From an uncultured virus (IMG/VR IMGVR_UViG_3300027847_001048) (Duplodnaviria > Heunggongvirae > Uroviricota > Caudoviricetes): 64,000 nucleotides of DNA. The number at the start of each line of letters is the position of its first letter. The first letter of the stretch is position 1. The stretch lies in IMG/VR virus record IMGVR_UViG_3300027847_001048; one strand, written 5' to 3'. Position numbers and translations under genes: made by a program. This document shows, piece by piece, positions 16,001-48,078 of this stretch. The notes under the pieces were generated by a model, which saw nothing but the letters and a program-made list of their open reading frames with translations, had not been told where the DNA came from and made no database searches.

Positions 16001-16366
16001 CCCTACTCATGGGATGGGGACCAGCGGCTTCCGTTCCACGGTAGGACTTTGCAGCCCTACACCGACCGACCCTTCAAGGTGGGCAACTGGTTGGATGAGG
16101 TACTGAAGGAATACGGGATCGCCACTCCTTCTGGGTCTATGTTGCCGCCCGGTGCCCGAATCTTCCTTGAAGTGGCGACAGGTCCAGGCCCCGGTGTTGT
16201 AAACGCCATCGACAAACAATACTGGATGGAAGGCCAAGATGAGTGGGCACGAGTCTCAAGTGGGTGTTGGGTCGGTAGTGTGAAATGTGCCTTTGATGTC
16301 GAAACGGCTGATGGCACAGCTTACACAAGAGATGTGAATGTTCTCGGCGATGAGGAGGATCGGTAG
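1094..16366 (+). CDS. Giant 5090-aa protein, probable virion/tail-associated structural protein
   Basis: 15.3-kb uninterrupted ORF with GGAGAG upstream. Gly/Ser/Thr/Asp-rich. Contains tail-protein-like segments (YLTIDYSAGIVVL; TTPHPHHLQVGDEVTISG...LNGRHRV). No catalytic motif recognised. Confidence 0.75.
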   Translation: MATDKELLEKLRKALEEKGHTTALREPWQEHLDRHTSVSSTASLQASEIFSDFAGSWAASYQVDPTATDLDKISNERLPPSPAKMTSKLGLPGYPEVNFIPYSHNTNRFGVKGPSLLGHPISFEVIGPTAKSPNVDWQWFLQEGSSEDRLYLDLGANLQDPNGSSVLAPSITSLQDGYGDLYGDNSQAGIYVIITQTGENSKTDTQVTGVGDGYIALEGVAGPGGGLREAIRAKTGASKYEIFRVVSWSNDYLQLDPGKRIRDHFDISASTDPIIRSIMLVRPKATRMVSIPGTGDAKGQERALVVVPPERSLNSDLKPPYEYDNAAPGSWRTEGFYGAWPGLGNGDSNLYAQGSSLPVPRIVGRSRALLPSTLEVPGVPPNLLVLKAATYSGVEDARDELKAGDVIHLHEVYSDELAEVAPKLTASPHGWWEVTSVPARGGTDQFIQLRGIEEVNPRTGKAHFGPWAIDGSGQDLSQPVPQVWVKFTIHKPIKDLWSNTGTGYQFDLDALKSARLTNLIDPSWVRESGKAIEIGHETVWAKADKAIFDTTSSQQGLSGTNANPGSLLDLGFRMVLFPAMASGDHLVPDFANPIDSLEVRLDEDAADERQYLTIDYSAGIVVLSHSPKLGCELDPHGLIGQITDLNPRGELVLFASCVPYSMEMGQLGSSIRVTSGAMEPDWCLPDSTQADVYGARHRVDIKTDVDGAPQIVGSQVLGQSLVLALAVPATPMEFKKSLAAFPVAGHIEILQSSEAPAFTTTSSTTDTIRLSTFSYNGVDVYTDSDGPWVRLRNVYGGADAGNSVTVNHDGEFLVVFRKDFYPETVIDSTGDSDFSYQLDTTHGSAKRTKTLRFAHANLFENLDGTITVYPTAVDGPAEELRAFFPLGGPDDTARFHLVPETQMWTADSGPCRDDGEHEVGIEIKRGRFFSSMRVDVRQDHMRYWRFTNLVSKLELQAPQGLETPPDTFVAHINTGQDATQPLPPHYMDWMPQSEGALCAVIEGSVIFSRGLAELGSSAVSASTESARFVLNARMYMGLDSQFFAGRPSFRDEYAQRDTFPSRGLESQIAGILAEAEEGPANPINWFAHTAEVWNNDLNADRWEVRAKELREDVNNHYGRQRHGGMGKIASFYTDALESPNYKEDTRLAFTERQVSTLPTKPYLLSDPIPQDGMAFPEGYRYILTVKSADPKNGNASKWITAQVISTDEMPVTTDPNVVAHYLNNAIYDGTVSNNIDAELDNAGFFKTLGAGASYAAGNSLLGTSTLVSNLTRNPMLTRDERQFLWCGPGDPRHPEHVIGGSNDTGKVALLCGGWGSASAESSAGSHRDFTNVVVEFTHTADFGDAGCSGCEDLAEFLGGDFALDRPTCGLFFGGHAWETFQVGAQAYGTDLPIEGSQLFVGSQVYTLTADDNVVHPDKPFVGTNVRIASGGFDTLKNLVRAISTHSGDRVWMFLPPEYLQDQTSQAIIENAPGHIIRQEEDVTQLRWVGGRQNDPANPWLTFSQPGGASDLHATVWWYRPAPAVNTDVNPWEFGSGLDGNKTEARLSDALGFLQRGTPPLGSMAGSFPIRGTYGDTEALVLGMPKGDSPYYSGPQAGTGLPKIHGKHAIPGYLGRWAWDIENTIDPIDVTDPTTAGIGQILATYGVGAHSENHFSSQLANRTSLEMAGVAPDGFINTTPHPHHLQVGDEVTISGSSLQLPWLGEHKALNGRHRVIALSTDQDGNTDPFKFQIDLGDGTGSVIQDPIDNFYEFHGLGEVSVGKTFQTTDTRCGFGEQQTGYESFLVYAVELDRHDTAALLKKKTVRDFIGVGDIITGRSLSIAGDETYPFVPVEGQRNDPSFHGLVFDPLAPLSLKTGAVDEQGAPVTVDKIGSSAFTFLVHRTMNTDRAAWPSSEQAQLASALPSHLRMSEVQPYDFGFSTPDRAFPVGESFSISIIANANAITSSGTFKSLYSALYGIHGKGYTGTSATPGLDGGSVTSWPGESSIPNAIFMAGGRINLLSNLNPTAPAGLVFSSPTPGVSDVNAEERYATTYIEHGVFVSTFNAHHPSPHSSYKLPTIGVGAPLDSAGLHSAFSTLRGNTEAQFKGGSSIGGVGGLRISGDATIWLKNVRGMGGKNAYVRRSPTIYYTKSPSGAPALGNTTTGPITSFGRDGVSGHTPSGFSASKRTTVNSDGATLHLQEATIEIGLTRADLASFRYATGNPEFPALRDDVHEPLQDQDSDGYWDDQGEGERMLHYANAVDSVDLPVPARFLTGSYLTLSPTQPPGWDEAGSPNTRSSSKVLTDLRLDEQGNPTLTNPNDGSWRITGVPMITASFRTSGSIDGYGASVYQTFPAGDGMSSGPVVDTTSPDEIVQGTGFQGMSASASESSIVAVLQVRVERYSLISSNPALDEGSLFHHQFVPENANPGEFRDGEGIALDSVLSHTWSISADPGGDSPILVAEVIDPGGSPTGAPASLHGLTFNPKVLASGANTVPMRLVPVFSRTPQTDSIAGMDTRLMGIHSNQTHRGETRSFAMFTVKGVGRSPVIWDTAQETYLRATIFSSQRADRLDDLISSQTTQGVFERDQTGRVSFVGHPARLGLGVVLDGGLGLVSARAFRAQPRSPVTDTVGSLTVFGHNAAYPMLNLLKPRQHVGVELPSTFNTVEFYEDTVIVGPLGSLIFDDGRAVHGLPAMDIAGRYASASFKSSPHRLGIGVTKGYAAAGAPGDNWSIGDLITRSDTLFPFTVAGIKFHSPGGLVYERAYRSIDARTGPKSMFLGKKAQAGIRGLEIPWTGECLLLPKGPPTIHGKGHANWRWTNDSSGWDYFDFGEANRATGHTPLDTPLYEFHGGYGRGHLEPHFPVLPGPIFDTMTTSGVQTNLISPDSSAGVSQHRGHPGNVYMGYRHSLSRDDGDIFKTWNHWNSSAESFTKVARQQMRVLDGMVLEDVTNGTFFTIGDIGRMDEMVKGTIELVTDFGSANVDSWDSKTIIIVVQDWDDYVEEEDGDDGSGDDLITFVIYFVDVISDPETQVQISDATDPAEKAKETVDNLLQFMASNDWFRANNVGCVLDQTGWDEKTVLRFSGPVSARHEATFITGSSVSPVSGQAPFSLVPNSFSNYRWHRGTGKPGETLELGQWGGERTVKRSSTGGSVTAGGGQPGTTVFHFLQNAPEQGISGGSNIIAPGEKITFGVSPGPPDYQQNSTRIGAYSYASQLEIDVSDSTLTGVTIAFSTTDPSVDPTLWASGAGHWQSNEFNPGTSGAKVLVEIIGDGDSSGAAATPQPLWYYGVTSSGDILAGGSVTVTGGTSANEVALSVHPGSGYPFLDVDGAGIVNVGIVTTYSIPSSYTTDYNLLYESVAKTGFLNVMALTAVADTPGPFQFQIVNGDNKATFINLVQAWNNAPWHEVFDFANCPGLNYAPIARLIGQIERYSETSSQTYSGQIPAYPWIWAVEFMTREIGPDTSNGAFFMKKSSGVDGNGDPIWDYLMTLGEGSSTEVFINGGMGLDISKIEAAAEVYGGTDPNGDVIPVRPWDAGPFWEGWEIDGLIIELIPFVNGYTPELIFDLNGHYDPTKDLFSTQEAGYGDRVDGGMVRRNLAGHLYRVVPNVEFVPVLGKRGVDGGLLPPLANPHDPQSVIPSADAVFYSAGYNFRGASSHGVGDIGRSLYICGTHNYVYTGWWTIIDVVENYPLSVFDDFTLGRPENGDHSLRTVAVLRKSNRGNGTRNPADNGLNQGDGALPLQYRPPRVRMGMNHQTNGFPQGDKRGATHYGFFSQGSVTGKRPEYSDLWLTVTLSKGGPTEALHRQQWRVLTDDMWDGIVYDIDSDGVIFPLAANPSLQVTDAVSLATYCNQDVRTNGKAVKFPAGHTLSKPWIRWQTDHNVSSVYGTAVVVSYNTNELKTSPHASEWLCGPGGRLQINFFSNASVGFQGGDPSAGAQYTMGVGFLSFTGHNSELDATTGDRNNHLWAHPVKLYGSQPSDGILEVDAGMHVNSAAGGLRWVFSAPLVEENIGSYLHLTKPSVYRFSKKLASQKNADVSYEEDFHWTSGYPREGDTYWNSTDIFRVNRCPNTMNMMVGGDCETYSPEIIRVYPSAETEIVDEGATDSGQGRMIMYSPLGVWGNWPDSATGSLPASGSVNEPVIYALQPIARERIVSIKASAGSSNVVRGAGYDPIQGSMNDSGLTNDRLGRGPLSGVHVQEHMVGDVSSSHVSPTGIIMSSPWLLLSRADAQRAVPQADGPYSIAEAAEDLGQAGNNIGSNFFGDTANWLLNSHDPIWVDPEHGEWTGDPQISNEAQDSYFGLGQVPSYFYSLYAWAPAGQWWETLIPNLSETQGQYNASCTPPTMRFDLTEAYTQAMQPGGGTNSPYPNHAPKGARLNRIWVNFGVWGNEPQGRHTQLGLPGYKQSDNTTAPNEVLSEYHMAFNLVCELPGSQARLKPRDHTYVQLKWDTSAQGVYYNDTYWYGTTITIRHSDTMGNIQSLVFEAVEQADLTALDGGGDPLYETSDHNLGSIGPSQTLGKYVVPLDAPGVVPSVNHVIAARRLAAEINRVSTIASDPNHNDYDPNLSSFNLTAYAVGTRVRIEANVPGDSGFEIRSHHSYYYIVGMTTSLYQPPRMVLEAGSVVDNTPTAFRTFRGGAPTELHTGTCSFPFGDRAPNALATYNASQLHHTDQGSRAPGGTVVIPLYCNREAGDLMPNVMERYVDVGPYSEIGYGQLTPDWALGSYEFGFGAGESEWPWKRTTMPIEKAVLQGGMLTVIKMLPWYLGGHMWNLSLNDASFSMYMGNAHTPVVWGGIDFDTANSNPGGFQGEQTERGQFTAPFLKPEYSIALASLFPRLSRVGGGVRDTFTSGLVANGDIFRRSANGTTGNGPASLSAAAMTGIVVAHNATSPRPPLRTDGGLMFGAETSPSYPNDQDESYGYTSSGQSGTSKFSARSPGTCPHAFTIALTPVGDRFDPPRGEDGHRVSVSPHGIHAAKDPVSGDLVPRPYSWDGDQRLPFHGRTLQPYTDRPFKVGNWLDEVLKEYGIATPSGSMLPPGARIFLEVATGPGPGVVNAIDKQYWMEGQDEWARVSSGCWVGSVKCAFDVETADGTAYTRDVNVLGDEEDR

Positions 16367-17227: not shown

Positions 17228-17244
17228 TATGAGTGGCGGGAAAC

Positions 17245-20200
17245 ATGGCTGAAGATTTCGGAAATGGCGCAAGTCGCACACTCTCTGCACTAATGAGGCA
17301 GTTTTCTGCCGTTGTATGGCAGAAGGGTAAGCCGCCGCTGGATTCGGAACTCAACTTGATGAGTCAAGTTGAGGCCGAACGACTGCGGCAAACTGTCAAA
17401 TCTGTGATGCACAGTGGATGGTTGATTGATCCGACGAGGACCAAGATTGACTTCAGTTGCTCTAAAGACTGGAGCAACTACTTCGTCTTCGGTAAGCAGA
17501 AGTCAGGAGAAAAGGAACCTCTCCTGTTTGCTAACGTCAATGGATGGGTCATTCCCGTTGCTGGCACTTTCACCGAGACTGAAGAAGAGAAGACAAACCG
17601 CATCCGTCTGAACCCGCCACCCGCAACAGACAGCCGGGTGGATTTGGTGTTCTTGGAGGCTTGGCAGACCCTTGTCGCCCCCAACCCGAGCGAGGCCAAC
17701 AAGCCCGCCGTGGATAAGGTCTGGAAGTACGGCAACGTCGAGTACGGCGGGTCGAATATCGAAGACGATCTGGAAGACCCGACTATTGGGTTCGAGACCT
17801 CCGAAAGATGTCAGATTCAATACCGCATCCGTGTCTATGGATCGGGTGCAGGTCTTGGTGCTGGTGTAGCTCTCGATAAGTATCCAGACGGTCTGGGAGA
17901 CCTCAACATTCTTGGTCAAGGTACACAGGACGCTCCTGTGGCTGGTTCCTCCTTCGCTAATGTGCGGGAGAAGTTGGATGACCCATCGCTTTGGCGTGCC
18001 GGTGACGGCGACCCAAACAATGCCTTGGGGACAATCGACGGCTACGTCTATGCTATCCCCCTCTGTGCAATCTTCCGGCGTAACACTAATACCTTTGTGG
18101 CTGTGACTTCGGCAGGGAACCCAAACCAGAACGGTGCCCTTGATCGAAACCCATCTACGGGACAGCTTGCGGACCCCCGAGAAGGGGCCAAGGCTCTTGC
18201 AGTTCCGACTTTGTTGGACAACCTGCTGGCCGATTCCTTGGGGACAGTACAAGTAACTGGTCTCATTGGATCTGGGTTTGATGACACGTTGCATCTCCCC
18301 GAGGGTCTTTTCCTTCAGGTTGAAGATGAGATCATCGGGATTTCAGAAGTAGACGTTACTACGACCCCCCCGACCATTACGTTAGAAGACCGTGGCCGTT
18401 ACGGAACCCACGCCACGACGCATTTAGCGGGCTCACCGATTCAGTTCTTCAGTGTCCGACCTGATGGGTTGTTCGCTGATGAGGTTCATCCAACTGATAT
18501 CTTGGATCTCCGACGAGCCGTGACTCCCGGCGAGTGGGATTACCACCGTCTTCTTGAACACAACATCGCCGCCCTGGCGAAGAATGACCTGCACTCCACC
18601 CATAAGAGGTCGGCTGCGGGAGATACCGAGGGTCCAGTCGTTGCCGAAGTCAGCTACATGCTGGCGGACGGGTCCACAGATGTTCCAAACCATACAGAGG
18701 GCTTGGACGGTCCAGACGGCACCCGAATCATCTTCTCCGATGCTTGCAGTGTGCAACAGCAGGTGACGTTGCTTCTCGATAATGATGCCACGCTCACCCA
18801 AGGTGCAGTCAATGATGAGTTCGACTCCAATGTTGGTTGGGATGTAGCACCAGACTTCAAGCCGAGCGGCTGGGTCAATAACGAGGGCAGCACCGGCTCT
18901 TGGACCAACGGATCAGTCATCTTCCTCCATATTGGGGGCGAAGACGGTAGCGGAGGCGCACGGGCGTCATTCCGTTCTGGGTCCGACAAGAAGGTGCGGT
19001 TCGTCACTCCCAAGGAACATTGGAAGACGGGCTACCCTACGGTAAACCCTCTGAACGGCAACCAATACCCCGTCACAGTGCAGTTCTTGGGGGCACCGGC
19101 TCACCAGCCGATGGCTCTCTATGAGCAAGACGTGGACGCCCACGCACTCAAGAAGCACCCGGGTCCGATGTACCCCTATCGACGGCTCAACTTCGAGTCC
19201 CCTTTCATCGTGTTGGGTGGTCTGCTTGATTCATCTTTACGCATGACTGGTCTGGCCGTTGCGACCAAGTACACCGCTATTGCACAGGCGGAGGGCTTCT
19301 GTGAGATCCAAGTTGATGTGAACTTCGACACCGAAGGGGTGTACCACACTACGGAACACGGACAGTTCGAGAACGACCCCTCCACGGTTTCTGCCCCACT
19401 CTTGCGGGGTAGCCGAACGCTATACGGCATGTTGACAGACGAGGGGAGAGACCGCACAGGCAAGTCTTCCGAAGTCTATGTAGTGCTTTATGGGGACAAT
19501 GCGTCAGGGGGTCGAGTCAACAATGGCTGCTTCCGAGTCATTGGGGCCGGGACAGCCGGATACACGGAGCACTCTGCTGATGATGCCTACTCTATTGTAG
19601 TGGCCCCTCTTGATCCAGAGTTCACTACGTTCGACACCACCACGGGCGGTGTTGTCACTGCCGAGTTCCGTTCCCAGTACACCAATGCCGAAGACGGTAA
19701 TGGACTGACAACCGGAGACCCTGCTCTTTGTATCGTATTGACCGACCTTGGCGGGTTGGCCGACCATCCTTGGAACAAGGCTCTTCTTGACGATACTGTT
19801 GGGGACTTTGATTATTCGTTCCCAATCGACGCAGCAAGTGGTCTGGTGAAGATCGACGCCAAGCTCGTTCTATCGACTACGCTGCTTTATCACCCGGGAC
19901 GTGGAGCTATGGCTCGCTTGCCGGATAGCCTCACCCGGTTCTCGCTAACAAACGCTGATAGCACCTACCTACGACAGTCTCCTGGGGCGCTTGACACCAC
20001 TTTCTCTGCGGCGTCTGGAACCCCAGGGAGCGAAACCTTCTTCGATCCAGTTCATGTCCAGCTTTGGAATCGTTTGCCGTCTTTGGGTTGGGATGCTCCC
20101 GTTGCTCCTGGCTACGGTGGCCGCATTGTTGCGAACACAGAGCAGGATCGAGACAACGAGTTGTTCATCGACCGTGGCAGTAAGACGGTAGTCTTCCGTC

Positions 20201-23200
20201 CGTACCGTTACCGTCAAATGACGTTGAACGGTATTACGGTTGGTCTGAACACTACTGTTGATCCCTGTGGTGGGGCAGTGGTTGAAGTGGGGCTGGACGG
20301 TAACTACCTCTACCCAGACACTACTCCCAAGGACGCCCACGAACTGTTCACAGGTAGCCTCGCTACTGGCAAGAGAATGGGGTTCCCCATTCCCACAGAG
20401 GCCATGCCTCGGTTTGGTCGCCAGGACATCCCTTACTTCCAAGACATCACAGGGAATGGGTCGGGGACTTTCCTTGCGGGCATCAACCATATGTTCTGCG
20501 ATTCGACCACGTTGAACAACGAGGTCTTCAAGATCATCGGTGGAGAGGACAACGAATCGAGTGGCTCCCAGGTCAAGCCGATATTCTTCCGAACCGGCAC
20601 CCCCCAGGATTATGGGCACGGCGGCACAGTCATCGGAATAGTGGACAACAAGCCCTACTACGAAGCTCGCAAGGTCTCTGATATCGATGAGTCCACCGAG
20701 AAGGGTACGGTTGTTCGCACCAAGTTCCGAACGGTTGTCTCCAGTGATTTTGGTCCCGGTCTTGACGGTATCCAACTGCCGCCGTATCTCGGAGTGGCCC
20801 GGTTGTACGGGGTCTACGACTACGATGATTACCAGTCGAAGGGTGGCCGCAGCTTTGAGTCAGATCGTGTGACTCTTGAGAATGACCCGGCTACGAATCT
20901 TCTACGCACGGATGCTACCGAGCAAACCTTGTTCATCATGCGGGATGGCGCACTCGATCTCACAGGCGAGACCGGGGACCATACCTATGTGATCCCCTCC
21001 AACGTCATCGATGTGACGCTCTCTCCGAAGCACAAGCTCAACGACTCGACCTCCCAAAAGGAGACTTTCAGGGACTTCGAGTACGTGGTTGAGATGACAG
21101 TGTTCGGGTTCTCCAAGGAATGGATCAACGGGAACAACTACGTGCTGGCTCGCCGTCACGATGCCCAAGGCAACTTGGTTTCCGATGGGGACAACGAAGA
21201 GTTGGAAGACCTCTCGATGGTCTTCCCCTGTGCTGCTTCACTGAACAGCGCAGTGTATTCACTCTACAACCGCACGGTCTACCAGGGTGACCCCTACATG
21301 ACCCGTGCTGGTGCGGTCCGAACGGTCTCCGACTATGAGCATCGCTACGGACAAGTCTCTGTTGCAAATGCCTACGAGCTTGTTCACCCGATCCAGCAGT
21401 TCAACGACCAGGGTGAGGCGCAGGTCCAGCTTCCGAACCCTCGGATGTTTGAAGTCTTGGCCTCTATGGACTTCTACACCACGCTTGGGACAGGTAAGAT
21501 CGGCGGCCACCTCTATCCAGGCACGTTGTTGGATGTTGGCTACACGGAAGACACCCTGAGTTCTTCTCGAAGAATCCCTGGATCATCCGACGACTCGGCA
21601 TGGCGAGTTCTGACCCGTGCCTTCACCGAAGGCCAGAAGACCAACAGCAACCGAGCAGAGGCAGAGATTCGGTTCCTTCCCGGCTCTGTTAGTGCGATGG
21701 ACGGGGCAACGATCACGATCACCGATCTGGACGGCCTCTCCTTTGACTTTACAGCGAGGGCTGCCCTTACTGATGAGGTTGTACTTGGAGAAGACGAGTT
21801 CCGTATCGTTACAGGATATCGTCCCCTCGTTTGGACCCAACAGTTGGACTTCCCCGCCCTGCTCCCCGGCGAAAGCACCTCTTTCACTATTGGTGCAGAC
21901 GGTAGCGGAGAGAACTACGAGACCCACATTCTGAATAACGCAGGACTTCGGTTCGGGAATACCGTAGACATCAATGCGATGACGGGGGCTGATTACCCAG
22001 AGAACTTGATAGTCCAGGCGCTCGTTACGAACGATAACGTCCTCAAGGTTACCGCTACCAACTCGGCGGCGATGGCTGTTCGACATCCTTCAGTCAAGGC
22101 CCAGCACGCATGGGACGGCACGGATGGGGTGGCCTCTACAGGAAGCGCCCCGGTCACAATCTTGGCGCACACTGCCCACACCAGCACTGCAATCACAGTA
22201 GCCGGGGCGGGTCTCAATGATGTGGTTCTGGTCAACATTCACGGGATAGACAGTGATAACGATGACGAATGGGACGGCCCCGTCTCTGGGATCATCGCTG
22301 ACGGCTATGTCTCTCAAGCGGGTGAGGTGAAGATACGTCTCACGAACACCACGGATGCAGATATCGCATTAGAAGATTCTGCTGTGACTTACGAGATTCG
22401 GGTCTTCTTCGCAGACGTGGAAGCCACAACGACTGATCCAGTCGCCCAGAACTTTGTCATTCGGGCTCTCGATACGCATCGGGACGTTGAACTCACAGCC
22501 AACCGCTTTGCCATAGCTGTCAATCGACGCACTGGAATGGGGAACGCTATTCAAGCGATGGCCGCTCATGCTGACATGGTTCGGTTGATTGGTGTTCCCA
22601 CAGGTGCCGAAGGCAACGGCTTGAAGGTAACGACCACCAGGGACAACTCGGGTGCCAACGTGGACGCCGCAAAGACGGTAGCGAGACTGTTTCAGATCGT
22701 TGTACCGCACTCCAACAACCTGCCCATTGATTCGTTCCTGGGGGCGGTGTTTACATCAGCCTATTTCCGAGGTGGTGCAGACATCCCTATGAACGCCGGG
22801 GACGGCACCAGTCAGATGGGTCTGACTGGAATGACGGACCGGTTCCCCTTGGGGATCTTGCTGCAAGACAGTGATTTCGTGTGCGAGAATCCGCTGAACG
22901 ACCAAGCTACGGCGATGAAGACCAGTCCTTCGGGGTTACGTCCGATTCAGACCATGCTTCCTTTGTCGGAACGTGGTGAAGAACACGACCGATTCATGGG
23001 TGAGCCGGGTGAGATGGTCAGCATGTCAGACGGCTCTATCTTGGTTTACACGCCGTTCCATGATGCCAACCGTCCGACAGGCACCCACAACTACCGTGTC
23101 TATCGTGGTGGCGGGGCCGTGATGGCGATGTCAGGCAAGAACCCAGGTGGCCCGGTGGATTGGGTCAGTGAGTCTCTGATCGCCCCCCTGAAGCCCGTTC

Positions 23201-23529
23201 TGAAGGCCGGAGCACTGTGTTGCAAGGCTATGTTGGTTCGGAACTTCGTGGAAGCCGCTTTTGCCGACCCAATGGAGGTCTCGGCGGGTGACGAGATCCA
23301 GATGATTATGATCACTCATGGCGTCCTTGGATCGGGGAACACCCAGAACAACGGCGTGATGATTGCTGGCACAATCAGTCCCACTGGTTATGGTGAAGGC
23401 TATGCTGCCGCAGACCGGTATCGTATCGACGGTAAGCCCATGATGGGCTCTGCCCACTCCAGGGCACATCGTCCGTTCGATGCTGTTGAGCCAGTGCCGC
23501 TCATTACTGATAACGATCCTATCGAGTAG
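17245..23529 (+). CDS. Large (~2094 aa) probable baseplate/tail protein
   Basis: N-terminal WQKGKPPLDSELN and RVDLVFLEAW resemble N-termini of phage baseplate/tail-fibre-base proteins. ATG at 17245 preferred over GTG at 17233. Confidence 0.7.
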   Translation: MAEDFGNGASRTLSALMRQFSAVVWQKGKPPLDSELNLMSQVEAERLRQTVKSVMHSGWLIDPTRTKIDFSCSKDWSNYFVFGKQKSGEKEPLLFANVNGWVIPVAGTFTETEEEKTNRIRLNPPPATDSRVDLVFLEAWQTLVAPNPSEANKPAVDKVWKYGNVEYGGSNIEDDLEDPTIGFETSERCQIQYRIRVYGSGAGLGAGVALDKYPDGLGDLNILGQGTQDAPVAGSSFANVREKLDDPSLWRAGDGDPNNALGTIDGYVYAIPLCAIFRRNTNTFVAVTSAGNPNQNGALDRNPSTGQLADPREGAKALAVPTLLDNLLADSLGTVQVTGLIGSGFDDTLHLPEGLFLQVEDEIIGISEVDVTTTPPTITLEDRGRYGTHATTHLAGSPIQFFSVRPDGLFADEVHPTDILDLRRAVTPGEWDYHRLLEHNIAALAKNDLHSTHKRSAAGDTEGPVVAEVSYMLADGSTDVPNHTEGLDGPDGTRIIFSDACSVQQQVTLLLDNDATLTQGAVNDEFDSNVGWDVAPDFKPSGWVNNEGSTGSWTNGSVIFLHIGGEDGSGGARASFRSGSDKKVRFVTPKEHWKTGYPTVNPLNGNQYPVTVQFLGAPAHQPMALYEQDVDAHALKKHPGPMYPYRRLNFESPFIVLGGLLDSSLRMTGLAVATKYTAIAQAEGFCEIQVDVNFDTEGVYHTTEHGQFENDPSTVSAPLLRGSRTLYGMLTDEGRDRTGKSSEVYVVLYGDNASGGRVNNGCFRVIGAGTAGYTEHSADDAYSIVVAPLDPEFTTFDTTTGGVVTAEFRSQYTNAEDGNGLTTGDPALCIVLTDLGGLADHPWNKALLDDTVGDFDYSFPIDAASGLVKIDAKLVLSTTLLYHPGRGAMARLPDSLTRFSLTNADSTYLRQSPGALDTTFSAASGTPGSETFFDPVHVQLWNRLPSLGWDAPVAPGYGGRIVANTEQDRDNELFIDRGSKTVVFRPYRYRQMTLNGITVGLNTTVDPCGGAVVEVGLDGNYLYPDTTPKDAHELFTGSLATGKRMGFPIPTEAMPRFGRQDIPYFQDITGNGSGTFLAGINHMFCDSTTLNNEVFKIIGGEDNESSGSQVKPIFFRTGTPQDYGHGGTVIGIVDNKPYYEARKVSDIDESTEKGTVVRTKFRTVVSSDFGPGLDGIQLPPYLGVARLYGVYDYDDYQSKGGRSFESDRVTLENDPATNLLRTDATEQTLFIMRDGALDLTGETGDHTYVIPSNVIDVTLSPKHKLNDSTSQKETFRDFEYVVEMTVFGFSKEWINGNNYVLARRHDAQGNLVSDGDNEELEDLSMVFPCAASLNSAVYSLYNRTVYQGDPYMTRAGAVRTVSDYEHRYGQVSVANAYELVHPIQQFNDQGEAQVQLPNPRMFEVLASMDFYTTLGTGKIGGHLYPGTLLDVGYTEDTLSSSRRIPGSSDDSAWRVLTRAFTEGQKTNSNRAEAEIRFLPGSVSAMDGATITITDLDGLSFDFTARAALTDEVVLGEDEFRIVTGYRPLVWTQQLDFPALLPGESTSFTIGADGSGENYETHILNNAGLRFGNTVDINAMTGADYPENLIVQALVTNDNVLKVTATNSAAMAVRHPSVKAQHAWDGTDGVASTGSAPVTILAHTAHTSTAITVAGAGLNDVVLVNIHGIDSDNDDEWDGPVSGIIADGYVSQAGEVKIRLTNTTDADIALEDSAVTYEIRVFFADVEATTTDPVAQNFVIRALDTHRDVELTANRFAIAVNRRTGMGNAIQAMAAHADMVRLIGVPTGAEGNGLKVTTTRDNSGANVDAAKTVARLFQIVVPHSNNLPIDSFLGAVFTSAYFRGGADIPMNAGDGTSQMGLTGMTDRFPLGILLQDSDFVCENPLNDQATAMKTSPSGLRPIQTMLPLSERGEEHDRFMGEPGEMVSMSDGSILVYTPFHDANRPTGTHNYRVYRGGGAVMAMSGKNPGGPVDWVSESLIAPLKPVLKAGALCCKAMLVRNFVEAAFADPMEVSAGDEIQMIMITHGVLGSGNTQNNGVMIAGTISPTGYGEGYAAADRYRIDGKPMMGSAHSRAHRPFDAVEPVPLITDNDPIE

Positions 23530-36315: not shown

Positions 36316-37889
36316 ACATCCTCCTGCGTTCTTGTCTAAAGGCCGACAAAGCCGATAACGAAGCCTTGCTGTTCCGCAACTATTTGATGTTCTCTGACTC
36401 GGGTCTCGGGTTCGATGTTCCCGAAGATAACGTGGTCTGGTCGTACATTGAAGAGTTCAGTCGTAACTACAACCACACCCCCGACTTGGTAACGGTCCGA
36501 AACCACTTCCAGCACATCGGAGAAGAAGGTGTCGTAGATCGTCTCGAAGTGATTGCGGCGTACACCCCTATTTTTCGAGGGGATTTCGAGTCTCGTCTCA
36601 ATGAGAAGGCCACGGAACGCAAGATCCGAACAGTCATAGAGGTACTCAAAGAGGCCAACTCTATCAATCAGATCGGAGTCGAAGTCCAAGAGGGTAGAGA
36701 TAAGAAGCTGTTGCGTGGTCCGGTAGCCGCTGTGCGGTACATCTTGGACCGCAGCCATGAGATCGTCTCCCCCACGCTCGGCGCACGGTTATCTGGTGAA
36801 GTTACGGGAGACGCCGAGGACTTCCTGGCTGAATATGACCGGGTGAAGTCAGACCCCTTGGCAGGCATCGGTCAGATGTCTGGTATCCAGCAGATGGATC
36901 ATGCCTTTCAGGGGGCGAAGCGTCAGGAGCTTTGGACCCATGCTGCTTTTACGGGAGGTCTCAAGTCTACTCTGATGCTCAACTGGGCCTACACACAAGC
37001 GGTTTACTACGGGCATAGCTCTTACATCTGTTCGTTGGAGATGCCTTACAAGCAAGACCGCCGCATCCTTTACTCGATGCACTCGCTCCATGAGAAGTTC
37101 AACCCGATTCGGGTGGACCTGGGTCTCCAATCAGACCTCAAAGTACCCCGTGGGCTTCTGTATCAGAAGATCCGTGACGGTGTTCTCGACGATGCCGAAG
37201 AGAAGTTCCTCAAGGAGTTCGTGGTTCCCGACTTTAGTGGGGGAGGCACCATCCCTTGGAAGCACGATCCAGATGGGGGTTACGGGAAGATCCACGTCGA
37301 GGTTTCCGATCCCGACAAGTCCGACTTCACCGTGGCGGATCTACGGTCTAAAGCGGAGATGACCTACAACAAGTCCCCCTTCTCCTTGATGTTCGTAGAC
37401 CATGCCGGGTTGATGGCACCTCGCAAGTGGGTGTCCAGCACGACGGAACGACTCAATGAGGTCATTCGGGATCTCAAACGGATGGCGTTGAGCTTCAACC
37501 GAGGCCAAGGGATGGCTGTTATCTCCTTGTTCCAGATCAACCGGGAAGGGTTCAAGGCCGCAGAGAAGAATGGCGGGAAGTACAACCTCACGCATCTCTC
37601 TTACGCCAATGAAGCAGAGCGAAGCTCGGACATTGTAACGACCACCTTCGTCAACGATGAGCTTCGCAAGCGGAACCGGGTTCTCTTCCAGTGTCTCAAG
37701 TCCCGTGACGACGCACCGTTCGAGCCGTTCGCTTCACGGGTAGAGTGGTCATGCAGAAGGTTGTTGACGAGCTACGGAGACAACATCGAACAGATTGTTG
37801 GAAAGCAGGACACGGGTAAGGGTAAATCGGCCACCTCTTCGCCTTACGAAGAGACAGGTAACTTGATTGATCTGGAGATGGAATCGTGA
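36312..37889 (+). CDS. DnaB-like replicative helicase
   Basis: AAFTGGLKST (Walker A variant), SLEM, FVDH, FQINREG, ERSSD, LKSRD. Confidence 0.85.
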   Translation: MNILLRSCLKADKADNEALLFRNYLMFSDSGLGFDVPEDNVVWSYIEEFSRNYNHTPDLVTVRNHFQHIGEEGVVDRLEVIAAYTPIFRGDFESRLNEKATERKIRTVIEVLKEANSINQIGVEVQEGRDKKLLRGPVAAVRYILDRSHEIVSPTLGARLSGEVTGDAEDFLAEYDRVKSDPLAGIGQMSGIQQMDHAFQGAKRQELWTHAAFTGGLKSTLMLNWAYTQAVYYGHSSYICSLEMPYKQDRRILYSMHSLHEKFNPIRVDLGLQSDLKVPRGLLYQKIRDGVLDDAEEKFLKEFVVPDFSGGGTIPWKHDPDGGYGKIHVEVSDPDKSDFTVADLRSKAEMTYNKSPFSLMFVDHAGLMAPRKWVSSTTERLNEVIRDLKRMALSFNRGQGMAVISLFQINREGFKAAEKNGGKYNLTHLSYANEAERSSDIVTTTFVNDELRKRNRVLFQCLKSRDDAPFEPFASRVEWSCRRLLTSYGDNIEQIVGKQDTGKGKSATSSPYEETGNLIDLEMES

Positions 37890-39160
37890 TCGTTACGGTA
37901 GCCCGCAAACCTCTCACCGGGACTGTGACTGCTTCGGTATTGAAGTACGGGACAGGAGCGTTGAATATCAACGCAACACGTATCGCCGCAAACGAGACCA
38001 TCTTGACCCACACGCAAGGTCGAGAAGCTGCCAACGCCGACCTCAAGGTGTACGGGAAGTATGCCGGGGGCTTCAAGACCCACCAAGCGCCTGGGCAGGA
38101 GCTTGGCCGATGGCCCGCCAACCTAATCCTCCAACATCTTGAAGGGTGTCGCTGCAAGGGTACTAAAGAGGTCAAAGGGGTTACGGGGGGGCCATCCTCT
38201 GGTGCCAACGCTTTCGGGCAGGATGCTGGGTGGAACGCTCACCAAAACCGTCCATCGGGCATTTCCCGCTACAACGATGAAGACGGCAAAGAAACCGTAG
38301 CCAACTGGATCTGTGCCGGGGGATGCCCCGTGGCTGCGCTTGATGAGCAGAGCGGCACCCTCAAGAGTGGTGCGATGAACAGCATCGCCAAGGGCGACCA
38401 ATACAACACCTACGGGAAGATGTATGAGCGCAGGGTGACGAGCCCAGCGAGCGAAGGTGGTGCGTCTCGATTCTTCAAGCAGATCGTGACCCTCGAAGAC
38501 TTGATCGAGTATCTCTACACGATGATCACCCCGGTTCACGTTGAAGGGGAGTCAATCGTCGTGATGGGCTTGAACGATTACGACTGGACGCAGCACGATG
38601 ATGAGTCCCTGCATGGGTTCATCGGTCGGGGGACACCGACTTCGGAGCAGTGCCGGGAGATCATGCGGTTCCTCAAGCCTGGGGCGCACGTCATGTTGAT
38701 GAGTCCCGAGGACCAACCGACCGGCCACGTCGGAGCGTGTCAGTTGGAGGATGACGGTTTCGAGATCCGTGATGCCATTCATGTTCTCCAAGGGCCTGCC
38801 CCTTTTGCCTATGTCGCCAAGCCTTCCCGTGCGGAACGTGGGGCTGGCAACAACCACCCAACCGTAAAGCCCGTAGGTATCATGGAGTTCTTACTCCGAG
38901 ATGTACCCAAGGATCATCCGGTGCTCGATCCATTTCTGGGGTCAGGTACGACGCTGCTGGCCTGCTTGAACACCAAGCACGATGGAATCGGTATCGAACG
39001 AGAGGAAGAGTACCTCCAGATTGCCGACCGTCGAGTAAGGGATTGGGACCGGCAGAACGTCGGGTGGGTCACAACAGAGATTGTATCCGAGGCGGCAGAG
39101 GAAGATGTCCCAGAGAGCGTGGGACTGGGTAGTTTGTTTGGGTTCGACGAGGCACCATGA
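37886..39160 (+). CDS. N6A/N4C DNA methyltransferase, C-terminal (SAM-binding) half
   Basis: ARKPLTGTV, GTGALNI, GRWPAN, GGASRFF, NHPTVKP, VLDPFLGSGTT, GIERE. No DPPY motif. Confidence 0.85.
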   Translation: MIVTVARKPLTGTVTASVLKYGTGALNINATRIAANETILTHTQGREAANADLKVYGKYAGGFKTHQAPGQELGRWPANLILQHLEGCRCKGTKEVKGVTGGPSSGANAFGQDAGWNAHQNRPSGISRYNDEDGKETVANWICAGGCPVAALDEQSGTLKSGAMNSIAKGDQYNTYGKMYERRVTSPASEGGASRFFKQIVTLEDLIEYLYTMITPVHVEGESIVVMGLNDYDWTQHDDESLHGFIGRGTPTSEQCREIMRFLKPGAHVMLMSPEDQPTGHVGACQLEDDGFEIRDAIHVLQGPAPFAYVAKPSRAERGAGNNHPTVKPVGIMEFLLRDVPKDHPVLDPFLGSGTTLLACLNTKHDGIGIEREEEYLQIADRRVRDWDRQNVGWVTTEIVSEAAEEDVPESVGLGSLFGFDEAP

Positions 39161-39252
39161 TTCAACTGTTACATGACGACTGCGTTGAACGCATGAAAGC
39201 TATGAAGGAGGCAAGCGTAGGGAGCATCATCTGTGATCCTCCCTACGGATAA
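39157..39252 (+). CDS. 31-aa methyltransferase N-terminal fragment carrying the catalytic DPPY motif (not in ORF track)
   Basis: ATGA overlap with the previous gene; translates MIQLLHDDCVERMKAMKEASVGSIICDPPYG*. Confidence 0.85.
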   Translation: MIQLLHDDCVERMKAMKEASVGSIICDPPYG

Positions 39253-39254
39253 AT

Positions 39255-40052
39255 GGCCTTGAGTTCATGGGCAAAGCCTGGGACAAGATCAATGAGCATC
39301 ACTCCCCAAGTCCCAACAGCACATACCCAAAGAATCGGAACCTAAAGGGCGTCCGTTACCATGAGTCTGACGGCGGTCGGATGCAGGAATGGCATCTTCA
39401 ATGGCTTCGTGAAGCGCATCGAGTTCTGCAACCCGGGGGAGCTATCAAAGCCTTCGGTGGCACAAGGACGTTTCACCGTCTTGCTGCTGCGATGGAAGCC
39501 GCTGGCTTCGTGGACATACGAATCGAAGTGTGGACCCACGGAAGCGGATTCCCGAAGTCTCTCAACATCGGAAAAGCCATTGACCGAAGCGGCGGCGCAC
39601 AGACCATTCAGTCGCACCAACTCAAAGGGACCACTTTTGCACAAACCCTTCGGTCCTACCGAAAAGCAGCAGGGGTGTCGAAGACCGAAATGGCATCTTG
39701 GTTCCCATACTCGGAAGTGACGAAGAACTGGGAACGGGTTGATGACGGACAGTTCCGAGTGCCCTCCGAAAGCGATTTTCAAGTGTTGAAGGACAGGCTG
39801 GGGCTGCCCGATTCTTTGTGTGAGGGTCTGTGGGCAGATGACCAACGGCAGCTTGTGTCTGATGAGGGGACCGACCGGAGAGGTGATGGCACGGTGATTG
39901 GCCTCGCCCACACCGGGAAGGTGTGGGCACCAGTCACCGAAGAGGCACAACTCTGGGAAGGATGGGGCACAGCGAACAAGCCTGCCTGGGAACCTGTCGT
40001 CGTAGGGAGGAAGGAAAATCCCGGTATCTCTTCGATGGATTATGCTGAATAG
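39255..40052 (+). CDS. Methyltransferase N-terminal half, continuation in a different frame, with XRE-type HTH insert
   Basis: GLEFMGKAWD...RVLQPGG..KAFGGTRTFHRL...GSGFPKS...EGWGTANKPAWEP. First ATG is at 39267, but homology begins at 39255. Confidence 0.8.
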   Translation, partial: GLEFMGKAWDKINEHHSPSPNSTYPKNRNLKGVRYHESDGGRMQEWHLQWLREAHRVLQPGGAIKAFGGTRTFHRLAAAMEAAGFVDIRIEVWTHGSGFPKSLNIGKAIDRSGGAQTIQSHQLKGTTFAQTLRSYRKAAGVSKTEMASWFPYSEVTKNWERVDDGQFRVPSESDFQVLKDRLGLPDSLCEGLWADDQRQLVSDEGTDRRGDGTVIGLAHTGKVWAPVTEEAQLWEGWGTANKPAWEPVVVGRKENPGISSMDYAE

Positions 40053-40075
40053 CAGTCGAGGAACCGGGGTGCCCT

Positions 40076-40405
40076 ATGAAGATGTTTTACCTAAATCGTG
40101 TCGAGGATGAGTCAGGTAAGTCCGGTACAGGCCGGGTTGCCCAAGGCTTTGTCTTCGATAACGGGAAAGTAGCTCTGACGTGGCTTTCGGACCATCCTTC
40201 CGTCACCGTCTATGACACTCTGGGCGAAGTTCGGGCTCTCCACGGGCACGAAGGCAAGACTGAAGTCATCATGGAACCTGACTGGAAGCGTGCGTTCCAA
40301 GAGTTGAAGTCGGCCCTTATGGACTTCGACCTCATGGAGACGCTGACTGACCGACTTCCAAAAGCAGGCGAAGCCGTGTCGTTGGTAGACAAGAACACCA
40401 AATGA
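40076..40405 (+). CDS. Hypothetical phage protein
   Basis: FYLNRVEDESGKSGTGRVAQG...HGHEGKT resembles a recurring small phage family. Confidence 0.7.
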   Translation: MKMFYLNRVEDESGKSGTGRVAQGFVFDNGKVALTWLSDHPSVTVYDTLGEVRALHGHEGKTEVIMEPDWKRAFQELKSALMDFDLMETLTDRLPKAGEAVSLVDKNTK

Positions 40406-40857
40406 TCGTGTCCCCAGACCACTACCTCATCACCGAGAGTGGTGAATATGTCTGGTCTCCCGAGAGGATAAAGGCGGCCTGGAAGTCGGCTTCCACAGCA
40501 CTGCTCCGCCTGACCAATGATCCAAAGTGGGCGAAAGTCGTGCTCATGGTTGGGATTCCAGCTTCGGGGAAGAGCACTTGGCTGAAGAAGAACCAGGAGT
40601 CGGATGCCATCTACTTCGACGCCACGTTCACCAAGAGCAGCGAGAGAGCCCCCATCATACAGATCGCCAAGGAAGCCGGGATGGTAGTTGAGGCGGCAGT
40701 AATGACTACGCCTATCGCTGTCTGCAAGGACCGAAACGCCTGTCGGCCCTCTGGTCGTCGTGTCCCCGATGACGTGGTTGAACTGATGGCTGCTCAACTG
40801 TTGGGCGATCCCCCCAAGAAGTCCGAGGGCATCGACCGGGTGTATTCAGCCCGGTAA
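40402..40857 (+). CDS. P-loop kinase (AAA_33 / polynucleotide-kinase-like)
   Basis: GIPASGKST, FDAT, RNACR...RRVPDDVV. Confidence 0.85.
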   Translation: MIVSPDHYLITESGEYVWSPERIKAAWKSASTALLRLTNDPKWAKVVLMVGIPASGKSTWLKKNQESDAIYFDATFTKSSERAPIIQIAKEAGMVVEAAVMTTPIAVCKDRNACRPSGRRVPDDVVELMAAQLLGDPPKKSEGIDRVYSAR

Positions 40858-40898: not shown

Positions 40899-41333
40899 AT
40901 GAGAACCATCACAGCGGCGGAACGGACACGCCTTATTCGATATGCAGCCAAGCTCCCCAAGGGCAACCCGAAGCGCCGTGCCGCTCTGCGATTGCTCCAA
41001 AAGGAGTCTGCCTCCGACGTTTCGTTACAGCAAGCGGTCCGAGAGTGGGTGGAGCAGATTGCGAAGTTGGTCCCCTACATAGATCAACGCACTGGAGAAT
41101 GGATTGGTGCATCTTTCACAGTCAATGGCTCTTTCGACGATGGGGTAGTTGAGACCACCGTTACGTTGAAGTTCACATGGGTCGGGCATGGTGTAGGTTG
41201 GCAAGTGTTCACCCAGCAGGGTGGGTATGGAAAACCCGAGCGGATCGACCGAGGTTTCCCCAAGCCGGGGGTTCGCCAAAAGGCGATTGCTCAAAAGATC
41301 GCCGATGTCTTGCACAAGGCGTCAAAGAGTTAG
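40899..41333 (+). CDS. Hypothetical protein
   Basis: AAGGAG RBS; basic N-terminal helix. Confidence 0.7.
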   Translation: MRTITAAERTRLIRYAAKLPKGNPKRRAALRLLQKESASDVSLQQAVREWVEQIAKLVPYIDQRTGEWIGASFTVNGSFDDGVVETTVTLKFTWVGHGVGWQVFTQQGGYGKPERIDRGFPKPGVRQKAIAQKIADVLHKASKS

Positions 41334-41794
41334 CTTGCAGGCTTCCACTTGGCGTTCTTGACCCAAGGGTGGCCGGTCCCTCTCCCACGGTGCCAATGAG
41401 AGTCCTCTTTGGACCACTTCAGACGGCCCTCTCCCCGCTTCCCCTTCTTGAGTGCATACTCGGCCTTCATCGCAGCCGAACGTCCCGTGTAGGGGCCGTA
41501 GACGGCTCGGGGAACCCACGGTCTGAACTTCTGTGTGTACTTGGCCCCGCCTTTGATCTCGCCATTGTGTTGGCGGATACGTCGAGCCAAGCTGGTCGTG
41601 CATCCCACGTAGAAGAATCCAGGGAGCTTATCGCCGGTTTTGCCGACCCGCCCCTGCTCGCTTTGGATCACGTACACCCAATAGGTGCTGTTGTCCTTCT
41701 TGCTCTTTGTGCGTCTACCCTTCCGAGTAGGACGACGGGGCTCCCCGTGTCTTTTGCGTGGGGCTGATCCGCTACGACGTTTCTTTCGAGCCAT
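41330..41794 (-). CDS. GIY-YIG nuclease, SLX1-like
   Basis: WVYVI...FYVGCT...RRIRQHNGEIKGGAKYT..FRPW...AMKAEYALK. Confidence 0.88.
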   Translation of the reverse strand: MARKKRRSGSAPRKRHGEPRRPTRKGRRTKSKKDNSTYWVYVIQSEQGRVGKTGDKLPGFFYVGCTTSLARRIRQHNGEIKGGAKYTQKFRPWVPRAVYGPYTGRSAAMKAEYALKKGKRGEGRLKWSKEDSHWHRGRGTGHPWVKNAKWKPAS

Positions 41795-48002: not shown

Positions 48003-48078
48003 TGGCTGGGGCGGGTGGACTCGAACCACCATCTCCCGGGTAACAACCGGGCAGGTTGCCAGTTGACCCTACACCCCA
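48003..48078 (-). tRNA. tRNA-Asn (GTT) with encoded CCA
   Basis: TGGGGTG-TA-GGGT..ACCT-G-CCCGG-TT[GTT]AC-CCGGG-AGAT-GGTGG-TTCGAGT-CCACC-CGCCCCA-G-CCA; 76 nt; G discriminator. Confidence 0.92.

What the first reader, a model, noticed from the sequence alone, without database searches (positions are those of the whole stretch)
39157..39270. Catalytic DPPY cut off by GGA-TAA-AT-GGC: candidate translational bypass or recoding
Seen: a translationally coupled 31-aa ORF ends ...DPPYG(GGA)-TAA; 2 nt later another frame resumes GGC-CTT-GAG-TTC-ATG = GLEFMGKAWD. Known: this MTase family normally reads DPPYGLxFMGKxWD contiguously, and T4 gene 60 bypassing takes off from a GGA codon followed by a stop and lands on a Gly codon. 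Skipping exactly 8 nt (Gly to Gly) restores the canonical sequence, and both flanks look intact. Caveat: the landing codon here (GGC) is not identical to the take-off codon. Alternatives are a -1 frameshift giving DPPYG-IN-GLEF, a separately made peptide, an inactivating insertion or an assembly error.
Basis: partly seen in the sequence, partly recalled or inferred. Interest (0 to 1): 0.72.

Follow-up and report, generated by a model that had tools for sequence, protein, structure and literature searches.

The report
Skipped stop in phage DNA methylase
A marine giant phage's DNA-methylase gene has a real 8-base break with a stop codon right after its catalytic motif; dozens of related genes carry similar breaks, often brought in by a selfish DNA-cutting gene, and ribosomes most likely jump over them, a way of reading genes known from very few natural cases and not yet tested here.

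Summary
The break is real: GGA-TAA-AT-GGC (39247-39257), with no indel in three runs' contigs. It recurs. In two searches that did not force a stop, 65 of 69 methylase loci with extra bases after DPPYG/DLPYG start with an in-frame stop (TAA, TAG or TGA). Pooled gaps are 4-15 nt, in all three frames, and end in GGN or AGY. Both flanks stay under purifying selection. That argues against a single frameshift, readthrough or decay, and for ribosomal bypassing from Gly to Gly.

In the sister subfamily, 43 of 68 gap genes (0 of 73 uninterrupted) follow one HNH endonuclease, often with a host 5' remnant: the T4 MobA/gene 60 layout. The window has no such nuclease. It does have a 13-bp hairpin ending in the take-off codon, whose 9-bp lower stem three relatives with 8-nt gaps share. 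[quoted passage not shown]

Bypass is inferred (0.7); no expression data. I found no paper on it, but this scan noted the same thing before on other DNA.

The parts
37886..39160 (+). C-terminal half of a beta-class N6/N4 DNA methyltransferase (AdoMet motif DPFLGSG, no DPPY), with a degenerate N-half segment inside; its stop overlaps the next start (ATGA)
   Evidence: PF01555 aa 313-380, E 6e-17; matches P0014 aa 209-293, 81-126 and 384-455
39149..39152 (+). GAGG, possible Shine-Dalgarno of the 31-aa ORF
   Evidence: sequence shows directly; function inferred
39157..39252 (+). ORF-a: 31-aa N-terminal piece ending in catalytic motif IV (DPPYG) and TAA
   Evidence: 74% identical to the start of uninterrupted P0038
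39216..39247 (+). RNA hairpin (9-bp lower stem, 4-bp upper stem) whose 3' arm covers the Pro and Tyr codons and the first base of the take-off codon
   Evidence: z -2.5 in the window, -3.2 to -6.9 in L274/L275/L276; 9/9 pairs in 4 of 4 8-nt-gap genes, at most 7/9 in 237 + 6 uninterrupted genes; P 0.0004 under synonymous resampling
39247..39249 (+). Proposed take-off codon GGA (Gly31)
   Evidence: role inferred
39250..39257 (+). 8-nt coding gap: stop TAA, spacer AT, proposed landing codon GGC (39255-39257)
   Evidence: same layout in L274, L275, L276 and in 85 clusters overall
39258..40052 (+). ORF-b: rest of the N-terminal (catalytic) half, resuming L-E-F-M-G-K; first ATG at 39267
   Evidence: PF01555 E 1e-05, phrog_67, homologues
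39602..39856 (+). In-frame 255-nt (85-aa) helix-turn-helix segment, absent from part of the population
   Evidence: joint 39601->39857 in X9 and X5; HTH_31 E 2e-04; 176-aa variant P0003

Best explanation
The gap is a miniature programmed translational bypass. The ribosome reaches Gly31 with the stop codon in the A site, and peptidyl-tRNA(Gly) lets go. The ribosome slides 8 nt, re-pairs at GGC through its two G-C pairs and resumes at CTT, giving one catalytic-half methylase with the normal DPPYG-L-E-F-M-G-K loop. In this clade the hairpin probably helps: zipping its lower stem as the mRNA leaves the ribosome would pull about 9 nt out and push the ribosome forward by about the gap length. The gap most likely began as the 3' end of a homing-endonuclease cassette that targets the conserved DPPYG codons. 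It would shield the invaded allele from cutting while bypass rescues the protein; the window's copy has no nuclease beside it. Shown: the anatomy, recurrence, selection on both flanks, nuclease linkage in the sister subfamily, hairpin conservation. Inferred: the hop, the hairpin's role, protection from cleavage, and a nuclease origin for this copy.
For: (1) Unforced searches: 65 of 69 real loci begin with an in-frame stop; the other 4 are in-frame 3- or 6-nt insertions. (2) Pooled 85 clusters: TAG 34, TGA 32, TAA 19; 4-15 nt; frames 32/27/26. (3) Landing GGN 63, AGY 21 (all after GGT), GTT 1. No earlier GG once L122 is re-read, and G makes up 4 of 187 spacer bases. (4) L073 and L293 have a second stop in the landing frame. 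(5) pN/pS upstream / first 11 resumed codons / further: 0.32/0.14/0.30 in gap genes, 0.33/0.14/0.25 in uninterrupted ones; 70 of 71 complete downstream frames reach the AdoMet motif. (6) In 74 of 76 TT..WD gap genes the first Met lies 11 or more codons past the landing, so the conserved resumed codons must be entered from upstream. (7) HNH gene directly upstream in 43 of 68 gap genes and 0 of 73 uninterrupted ones (p 8e-19). Host 5' remnant in 25 of 41 such loci. N-terminal piece median 47 vs 32 aa. This is the MobA layout. (8) Hairpin. (9) Six more close relatives of the window's gene show the other frame reading into G-L-E-F.
Against: No RNA, ribosome or protein data. Take-off and landing are identical in 18 of 85 and in the same wobble class in 30 of 85; the window's GGA/GGC pair is neither, whereas the gene 60 homologues are always wobble-matched. 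14 of 85 gaps pass an AGY triplet that serves as the landing elsewhere, so first-match scanning does not explain them. The long hairpin is missing from the 5 longer gaps of this subfamily and from the TT..WD subfamily (p 0.55). Three of its four carriers share an identical lower stem, which may just be inheritance. None of the 9 gap genes of the window's subfamily has the HNH or a 5' remnant; only L273 has a different nuclease beside it. Decay happens: L274 is reduced to 28 downstream codons, and cultured phages VnaP and H101 keep the HNH without a methylase body. In the window the -1 frame is open and an ATG lies 4 codons past the landing.
Confidence: 0.7

Rival explanations
1. Stop-triggered frameshift or readthrough: the ribosome stalls at the stop, shifts by -1 here (+1 or 0 in other genes) and translates the gap, adding a few residues (DPPYG-I-N-G-L-E-F here).
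For: The landing frame is open in the window and in 83 of 85 gaps. 3 of 79 uninterrupted homologues carry longer loops after DPPY, so the site can take insertions. The 4-nt gaps fit a +1 shift onto a Ser codon (14 clusters).
Against: It needs three different mechanisms at one site (frames 32/27/26, three stop codons). None of the 26 sites needing -1 shows a slippery heptamer (read by eye). Two gaps have a stop in the landing frame, about what chance gives (my count: 2 of about 45 eligible codons, against about 6% expected). It does not explain the second Gly-like codon at the end of 84 of 85 gaps.
Confidence: 0.11
2. Two separately made chains: the 31-aa DPPYG peptide and a protein re-initiated at ATG 39267 assemble without a covalent link.
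For: This enzyme is already split into two genes. An in-frame ATG lies 4 codons past the gap. In L093, P0029 and P0047 the GGA-TGA junction itself makes an in-frame ATG.
Against: G-L/I-x-F before that ATG is kept, with synonymous changes, in all 9 gap loci of this subfamily. Only 10 of 85 gaps have an in-frame ATG/GTG/TTG near the landing, 9 of them this family's own FMGK Met. The first resumed codons have pN/pS 0.14 upstream of any start in the sister subfamily.
Confidence: 0.08
3. Inactivating scar: a selfish nuclease breaks a dispensable phage methylase, and the flanks look intact only because the insertions are recent.
For: Gap genes scatter across the tree of the downstream part (41 changes for 69 rows against 48.3 shuffled; at least 22 forced). 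VnaP, H101 and L274 show decay.
Against: The element-borne N-terminal piece is under the same purifying selection as normal genes, and 70 of 71 downstream frames are whole. 25 TT..WD and 9 FMGK gap genes persist without the HNH. An element that only kills the gene has no need to carry a replacement start, or a hairpin with compensatory changes.
Confidence: 0.06
4. RNA- or DNA-level removal: a tiny intron is cut out, or slippage between the two GG repeats deletes the 8 nt in some molecules.
For: Most gaps are flanked by GG...GG or GG...AG, and removal between them always restores a Gly codon.
Against: The only fixed feature is an in-frame stop in three spellings, which is a signal for ribosomes. 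From established knowledge (recalled), 4-nt introns fit no known splicing route. No gap-less contig appeared in the three runs that cover the site (contigs miss rare variants).
Confidence: 0.04
5. Assembly or sequencing error.
For: None found.
Against: Same bases in three runs' contigs; the same 8-nt layout in L274-L276.
Confidence: 0.01

Closest known systems
Phage T4 gene 60 bypass within the MobA (HNH) homing cassette and its homologues (bioRxiv 10.1101/2022.08.31.505936: passages and part 2 of 7 read; 10.1101/2024.12.09.627546: abstract and first part of the introduction)
   Same: Gly take-off followed by a stop, Gly landing. HNH gene plus a replacement N-terminus of about 45 aa plus a bypass cassette inside a conserved gene. 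Nuclease lost in some lineages while the gap stays. mRNA pairing at the ribosome exit is proposed there as the driver.
   Different: Target is the DPPYG motif of N6/N4 DNA methylases, not topoisomerase. Gaps are 4-15 nt, not 50, and fall in all frames. Third bases are mostly unmatched and 21 of 85 land on AGY. A mini-SD is rare (6 of 85). The window's hairpin lies 5' and ends in the take-off codon. The window's leader peptide is 31 aa and has no nuclease beside it. I did not compare this HNH with MobA itself.
Streptomyces phage Hau3 terminase, two 10-nt gaps (PMC10732093: passages)
   Same: Short frame-breaking inserts in a phage gene, flanks contiguous in relatives, 5' stem-loop proposed as a stimulator.
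   Different: Triggered by the rare codon UUA and read as a life-cycle switch; the paper says bypass is supported but not proven. Here a true stop, Gly codons and a nuclease link.
Synthetic 'stop-hops' in E. coli (PMC5009743: passages)
   Same: Codons of one family flank a stop, and a few bases are skipped.
   Different: That 2016 review says no natural in-frame stop-hop was known; 32 of 85 clusters here are in-frame candidates. The window's own gap is out of frame.
Beta-class N6/N4 DNA methyltransferases (PF01555; DpnA, CcrM, M.MboIIA, M.RsrI as solved relatives of P0014)
   Same: Motif IV DPPY near the start, AdoMet motif near the end, same family profile.
   Different: Here the enzyme is in two genes in swapped order, and the catalytic gene is broken after DPPYG.

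Membership tests
T4 gene 60-type programmed bypass | Stop (or hungry) codon directly after the take-off codon | tested here: met
   GGA-TAA; 65 of 69 unforced loci
T4 gene 60-type programmed bypass | Take-off and landing codons identical or wobble-matched for one tRNA | tested here: not met
   Window GGA/GGC; 18 of 85 identical, 30 of 85 same wobble class; landing in the GGN box in 63 of 85
T4 gene 60-type programmed bypass | Coding gap of about 50 nt holding a take-off stem-loop | tested here: not met
   8 nt here, 4-15 nt in relatives; spacers fold less than controls
T4 gene 60-type programmed bypass | 5' stem-loop upstream of take-off | tested here: inconclusive
   Strong hairpin 39216-39247, conserved in 4 of 4 8-nt-gap genes but absent from other gap classes, and it overlaps the take-off codon
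T4 gene 60-type programmed bypass | Mini Shine-Dalgarno 5-7 nt before the landing codon | tested here: inconclusive
   6 of 85 overall; in the window the take-off GGA itself sits 5 nt before the landing
T4 gene 60-type programmed bypass | No premature landing site in the gap | tested here: inconclusive
   No earlier GG in any gap, but 14 of 85 pass an AGY; none in the window
T4 gene 60-type programmed bypass | Nascent-peptide signal | not testable with these tools
   Gap genes of the sister subfamily have longer, distinct leaders (Tyr at -17 in 32 of 73 vs 2 of 118), which may be founder effect; the window's leader is 31 aa
T4 gene 60-type programmed bypass | Fused protein shown by mass spectrometry or reporter | not testable with these tools
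   No expression data
MobA-like homing cassette | Homing endonuclease gene next to the gap | tested here: not met
   Window: no hit to the HNH profile. Sister subfamily: 43 of 68 vs 0 of 73; L273 has a different nuclease
MobA-like homing cassette | Element-borne replacement N-terminus with a host 5' remnant upstream | tested here: not met
   0 of 9 loci in the window's subfamily; 25 of 41 HNH loci in the sister subfamily
MobA-like homing cassette | Gap protects the allele from the nuclease | not testable with these tools
   Shown for MobA as cited; inferred here
Beta-class N6/N4 DNA methyltransferase | Motif IV (DPPY) and motif I (FxGxG) with the PF01555 profile | tested here: met
   DPPY in ORF-a, DPFLGSG in 37886-39160, PF01555 hits in both genes
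Beta-class N6/N4 DNA methyltransferase | Single chain, motif IV before motif I | tested here: not met
   Two genes in swapped order

The most novel reading that the evidence does not exclude
A widespread family of homing cassettes protects itself with neither intron nor intein, only a 4-15-nt 'stop plus spare Gly codon' patch in a catalytic motif. Ordinary ribosomes of many bacterial phyla hop over it using two-base re-pairing. In the window's clade a hairpin encoded by synonymous codon choice acts as a ruler that pushes the ribosome exactly 8 nt. Natural bypassing, including in-frame stop-hops, would then be common in phages and not a T4 oddity.
Probability: 0.5. Interest if true: 0.88.

Novelty: new variant of a known kind. 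Interest (0 to 1): 0.74.

Why it matters
The papers read here list few natural bypass cases: T4 gene 60 and its homologues, Magnusiomyces mitochondria, and candidate sites in one terminase. This site supplies 85 sequence clusters with gaps of 4-15 nt, all frames, three stop codons and mismatched landings. That is a natural mutational series for finding the minimum needed for a ribosome to take off and land. It also points to a third way, besides introns and inteins, for homing nucleases to sit inside catalytic motifs. Gene callers cut these methylases at the later Met and lose the catalytic motif (28 of 99 close relatives start there; some may be contig ends), so phage methylase repertoires are probably under-counted.

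Tried and rejected
No whole genome is held for the window; the nearest virus record G001 is an 85-kb fragment. No RNA holder was listed. Patterns forcing TAAAT were mostly chance: 5 of 14 loci real and 1 of 20. The idea that TAAAT is a fixed motif was dropped. Of 41 genome hits, 22 were real gap sites, 2 were uninterrupted genes with Trp after Gly, and 17 were chance.

Rows dropped before counting: 3 chance hits (L045, L056, L085). L061 (in-frame, no stop) is counted among the 69 but fell outside the clustering pattern; L309 and L144 (real 4-nt gaps) also fell outside it.

The IQ-TREE run did not finish; the FastTree result is used. No general hairpin was found in the TT..WD subfamily; only weak pairing of positions -10/-1 (28 vs 19 expected). 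DNA searches of cultured phages and plasmids with gap regions showed no intact gap gene: H1 was opened and is uninterrupted, the other hits were not opened. The HNH query found three records of two phages and no plasmid. The L273 nuclease had no match in five virus records, four of them fragments. No sigma-70 promoter was found in 37500-40500. The window's one tRNA gene is tRNA-Asn, not a suppressor. No structure or complex job was run.

Literature: eight searches and term look-ups in PMC5009743, PMC10885494, PMC2677866, PMC4351075, PMC3711429, PMC10732093 and the 2022 gene 60 preprint (passages only) showed no report of bypass at DPPYG. The library lacks most subscription journals. Supplements were not read; the cluster tables of PMC3711429 and the closed bioRxiv supplements could bear on novelty.

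Full report
Observation. The bases are as described: GGA at 39247-39249, TAA, AT, then GGC CTT GAG TTC ATG. The 31-aa ORF ends at DPPYG and is coupled by ATGA to the upstream ORF. The other frame runs open to 40052. Contigs of three public runs cover the site without an indel; X9 is not flagged as a possible source and bridges it. The fourth run does not cover the site. The window looks like a fragment of a marine giant phage: DnaB, SNF2, Pol A, NAD ligase and primase genes, holders mostly in seawater metagenomes, a nearest virus record estimated 16% complete at 85 kb, and a relative in a complete 436-kb genome.

The enzyme. ORF 37886-39160 is the C-terminal, AdoMet-binding half of a PF01555 methylase and has no DPPY. 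ORF-a plus ORF-b form the catalytic half. Of 120 listed homologues of ORF-b, 79 read through DPPY, and 76 of these have exactly three residues before F(M/L). Removing 8 nt gives that spacing. Among the 99 with the same half-length form, 59 are contiguous, 28 start at the later Met, 6 show the other frame reading into G-L-E-F and 6 are partial. Some Met-starts may be contig ends.

Recurrence. The first gave 63 loci: 3 chance, 4 in-frame insertions without a stop, 56 starting with an in-frame stop. The second, in the window's FMGK subfamily, gave 9 loci, all starting with a stop. Searches that forced a stop added more, including 22 of 41 hits in cellular genome assemblies of Bacillota, Bacteroidota, Cyanobacteriota, Thermotogota, Spirochaetota and others. 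After clustering at 90%, 85 of 88 insert clusters start with a stop (inflated by the forced searches), against 237 uninterrupted clusters. Stops: TAG 34, TGA 32, TAA 19. Lengths 4-15 nt; frames 32/27/26. Landing: GGN 63, AGY 21 (always after GGT), GTT 1. Spacers hold 4 G in 187 bases and no earlier GG once L122 is re-read.

The genes are alive. Uncorrected pN/pS on nearest-neighbour pairs is 0.32 upstream, 0.14 over the first 11 resumed codons and 0.30 further on for gap genes (60 pairs). For uninterrupted genes it is 0.33, 0.14 and 0.25 (99 pairs). 70 of 71 complete downstream frames reach the AdoMet motif. In 74 of 76 TT..WD gap genes the first Met is 11 or more codons past the landing, so the conserved resumed codons must be entered from upstream. 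L073 and L293 carry a second stop in the landing frame, which a shift or readthrough cannot pass. A ribosome hop from Gly to a Gly-like codon is the one mechanism that covers all classes. This is inference.

Where the gaps come from. On a FastTree of the downstream part (144 rows), gap genes are scattered: 41 changes against 48.3 shuffled, at least 22 forced. Their N-terminal pieces, however, are distinct and longer (median 47 vs 32 aa). Directly upstream of 43 of 68 TT..WD gap genes lies one family of HTH-NUMOD3-HNH proteins; 0 of 73 uninterrupted genes have it. The profile was built from 39 of the positives, so the negatives are the real test. Upstream of the HNH, 25 of 41 loci keep the host's old 5' end, cut at or before DPPY in 20 and fused to the HNH frame in 5. 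This is seen in 0 of 25 nuclease-less gap genes and 1 of 68 uninterrupted ones. The layout (host remnant, nuclease, replacement start, gap, host body) matches the T4 MobA/gene 60 cassette, where the bypass insert blocks nicking and the nuclease is sometimes lost. The window and the other 8 FMGK clusters lack this HNH. L273 has a different, divergent homing-endonuclease-like gene (phrog_3339, E 6e-10). The window shares the CCC Pro codon favoured by gap genes (57 of 76 vs 14 of 119; FMGK 7 of 9 vs 37 of 118). A nuclease origin for this copy is therefore likely but not shown.

A local RNA signal. The window folds a 9 + 4 bp hairpin at 39216-39247 that ends in the first base of the take-off codon. 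All four FMGK clusters with an 8-nt gap have the full lower stem, with one A-U to G-C change there and further such changes in the upper stem. No uninterrupted gene exceeds 7 of 9 pairs (237 clusters plus 6 same-subfamily genes). Synonymous resampling gives all 13 pairs in 0.04% of 20,000 trials. The stem cannot close while the ribosome sits on Gly31, so closing it would draw about 9 nt out behind the ribosome, in line with the exit-pairing driver proposed for gene 60. The sample is four genes, and longer gaps and the sister subfamily lack this hairpin.

Against. There are no expression data. Codon matching is poor (18 of 85 identical), and 14 gaps pass an AGY that is used as the landing elsewhere, so the hop may be inefficient or positioned by something not yet seen. 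In the window the -1 frame is open and a Met follows soon. Some copies decay (L274; VnaP and H101). Collection scans were capped, so the prevalence is unknown.

Known and new. It works like the gene 60 cassette but fails that family's matched-codon, gap-size and adjacent-nuclease tests in this window, so I do not file it as a member. Eight literature searches found no report of bypass in methylase genes. The 2016 review passage says no natural in-frame stop-hop was known. This scan's earlier notes describe the same phenomenon on other DNA. I saw them only after the recurrence, nuclease and hairpin results were in hand, and they are not independent evidence.

Verdict: real; most likely a miniature programmed bypass left by a homing cassette (0.7); new variant of a known kind; interest 0.74.

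Noticed in passing
window 39602-39856: An in-frame 85-aa helix-turn-helix segment is present in some contigs and absent in others of the same runs; a 176-aa protein without it is on record (P0003). L002 has an HTH-like insertion at a similar place (by eye).
   Followed up: partly
window 37886-39160: The C-half methylase gene carries a degenerate N-half segment (aa 256-303 match P0014 81-126) without DPPY and lies upstream of the catalytic half. C-half-like genes also lie near the gap genes in L271, L275, L276 and L277.
   Followed up: partly
L281, L283, L291, L310, L315, L317: Six near-identical gap-bearing methylase genes on six contigs of one Leptolyngbyaceae assembly, sharing 650-1500 nt of upstream flank: a repeated element or co-binned phage variants.
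   Followed up: partly
L273:2094-2945 (-): Divergent homing-endonuclease-like gene (zinc ribbon; DUF559-like look-alikes) next to an FMGK gap gene: perhaps a second nuclease family using the same site.
   Followed up: partly
L270, L273, L276 downstream frames: Intein-like insertions at Y-G/S-G-F-P-K in three gap genes (by eye; no Pfam Hint hit on the two of these frames that were scanned).
   Followed up: no
L039, L066, L077 just past the host 5' remnant: TTGAC...TATAAT-like promoter at the cassette's left edge (by eye), so the element may drive its own transcription.
   Followed up: no
G006:C1:100873-105763 (L448-L456): Six uninterrupted catalytic-half methylase genes of the window's subfamily within 5 kb.
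   Followed up: partly
L445 (Vibrio phage VnaP) and L444 (Pseudoalteromonas phage H101): Cultured phages carry the HNH (54-57% identical to L040's) with no methylase body after it; VnaP keeps methylase fragments on both sides. A ready source of the nuclease for assays.
   Followed up: yes
L282: A 5-nt gap in a contig binned as a Promethearchaeota archaeon; its nearest tree neighbour is a 421-kb viral contig, so the bin may mislead.
   Followed up: no
window 41330-41794 (-): GIY-YIG nuclease gene 1.3 kb downstream (PF01541, E 3e-10); no evidence that it belongs to the gap.
   Followed up: no
window 1094-16366 and 17233-23529: ORFs of 5090 and 2098 aa; the second has no Pfam or PHROG hit, the first was not scanned.
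   Followed up: no
window 48003-48078 (-): Single tRNA-Asn(GTT) gene.
   Followed up: no
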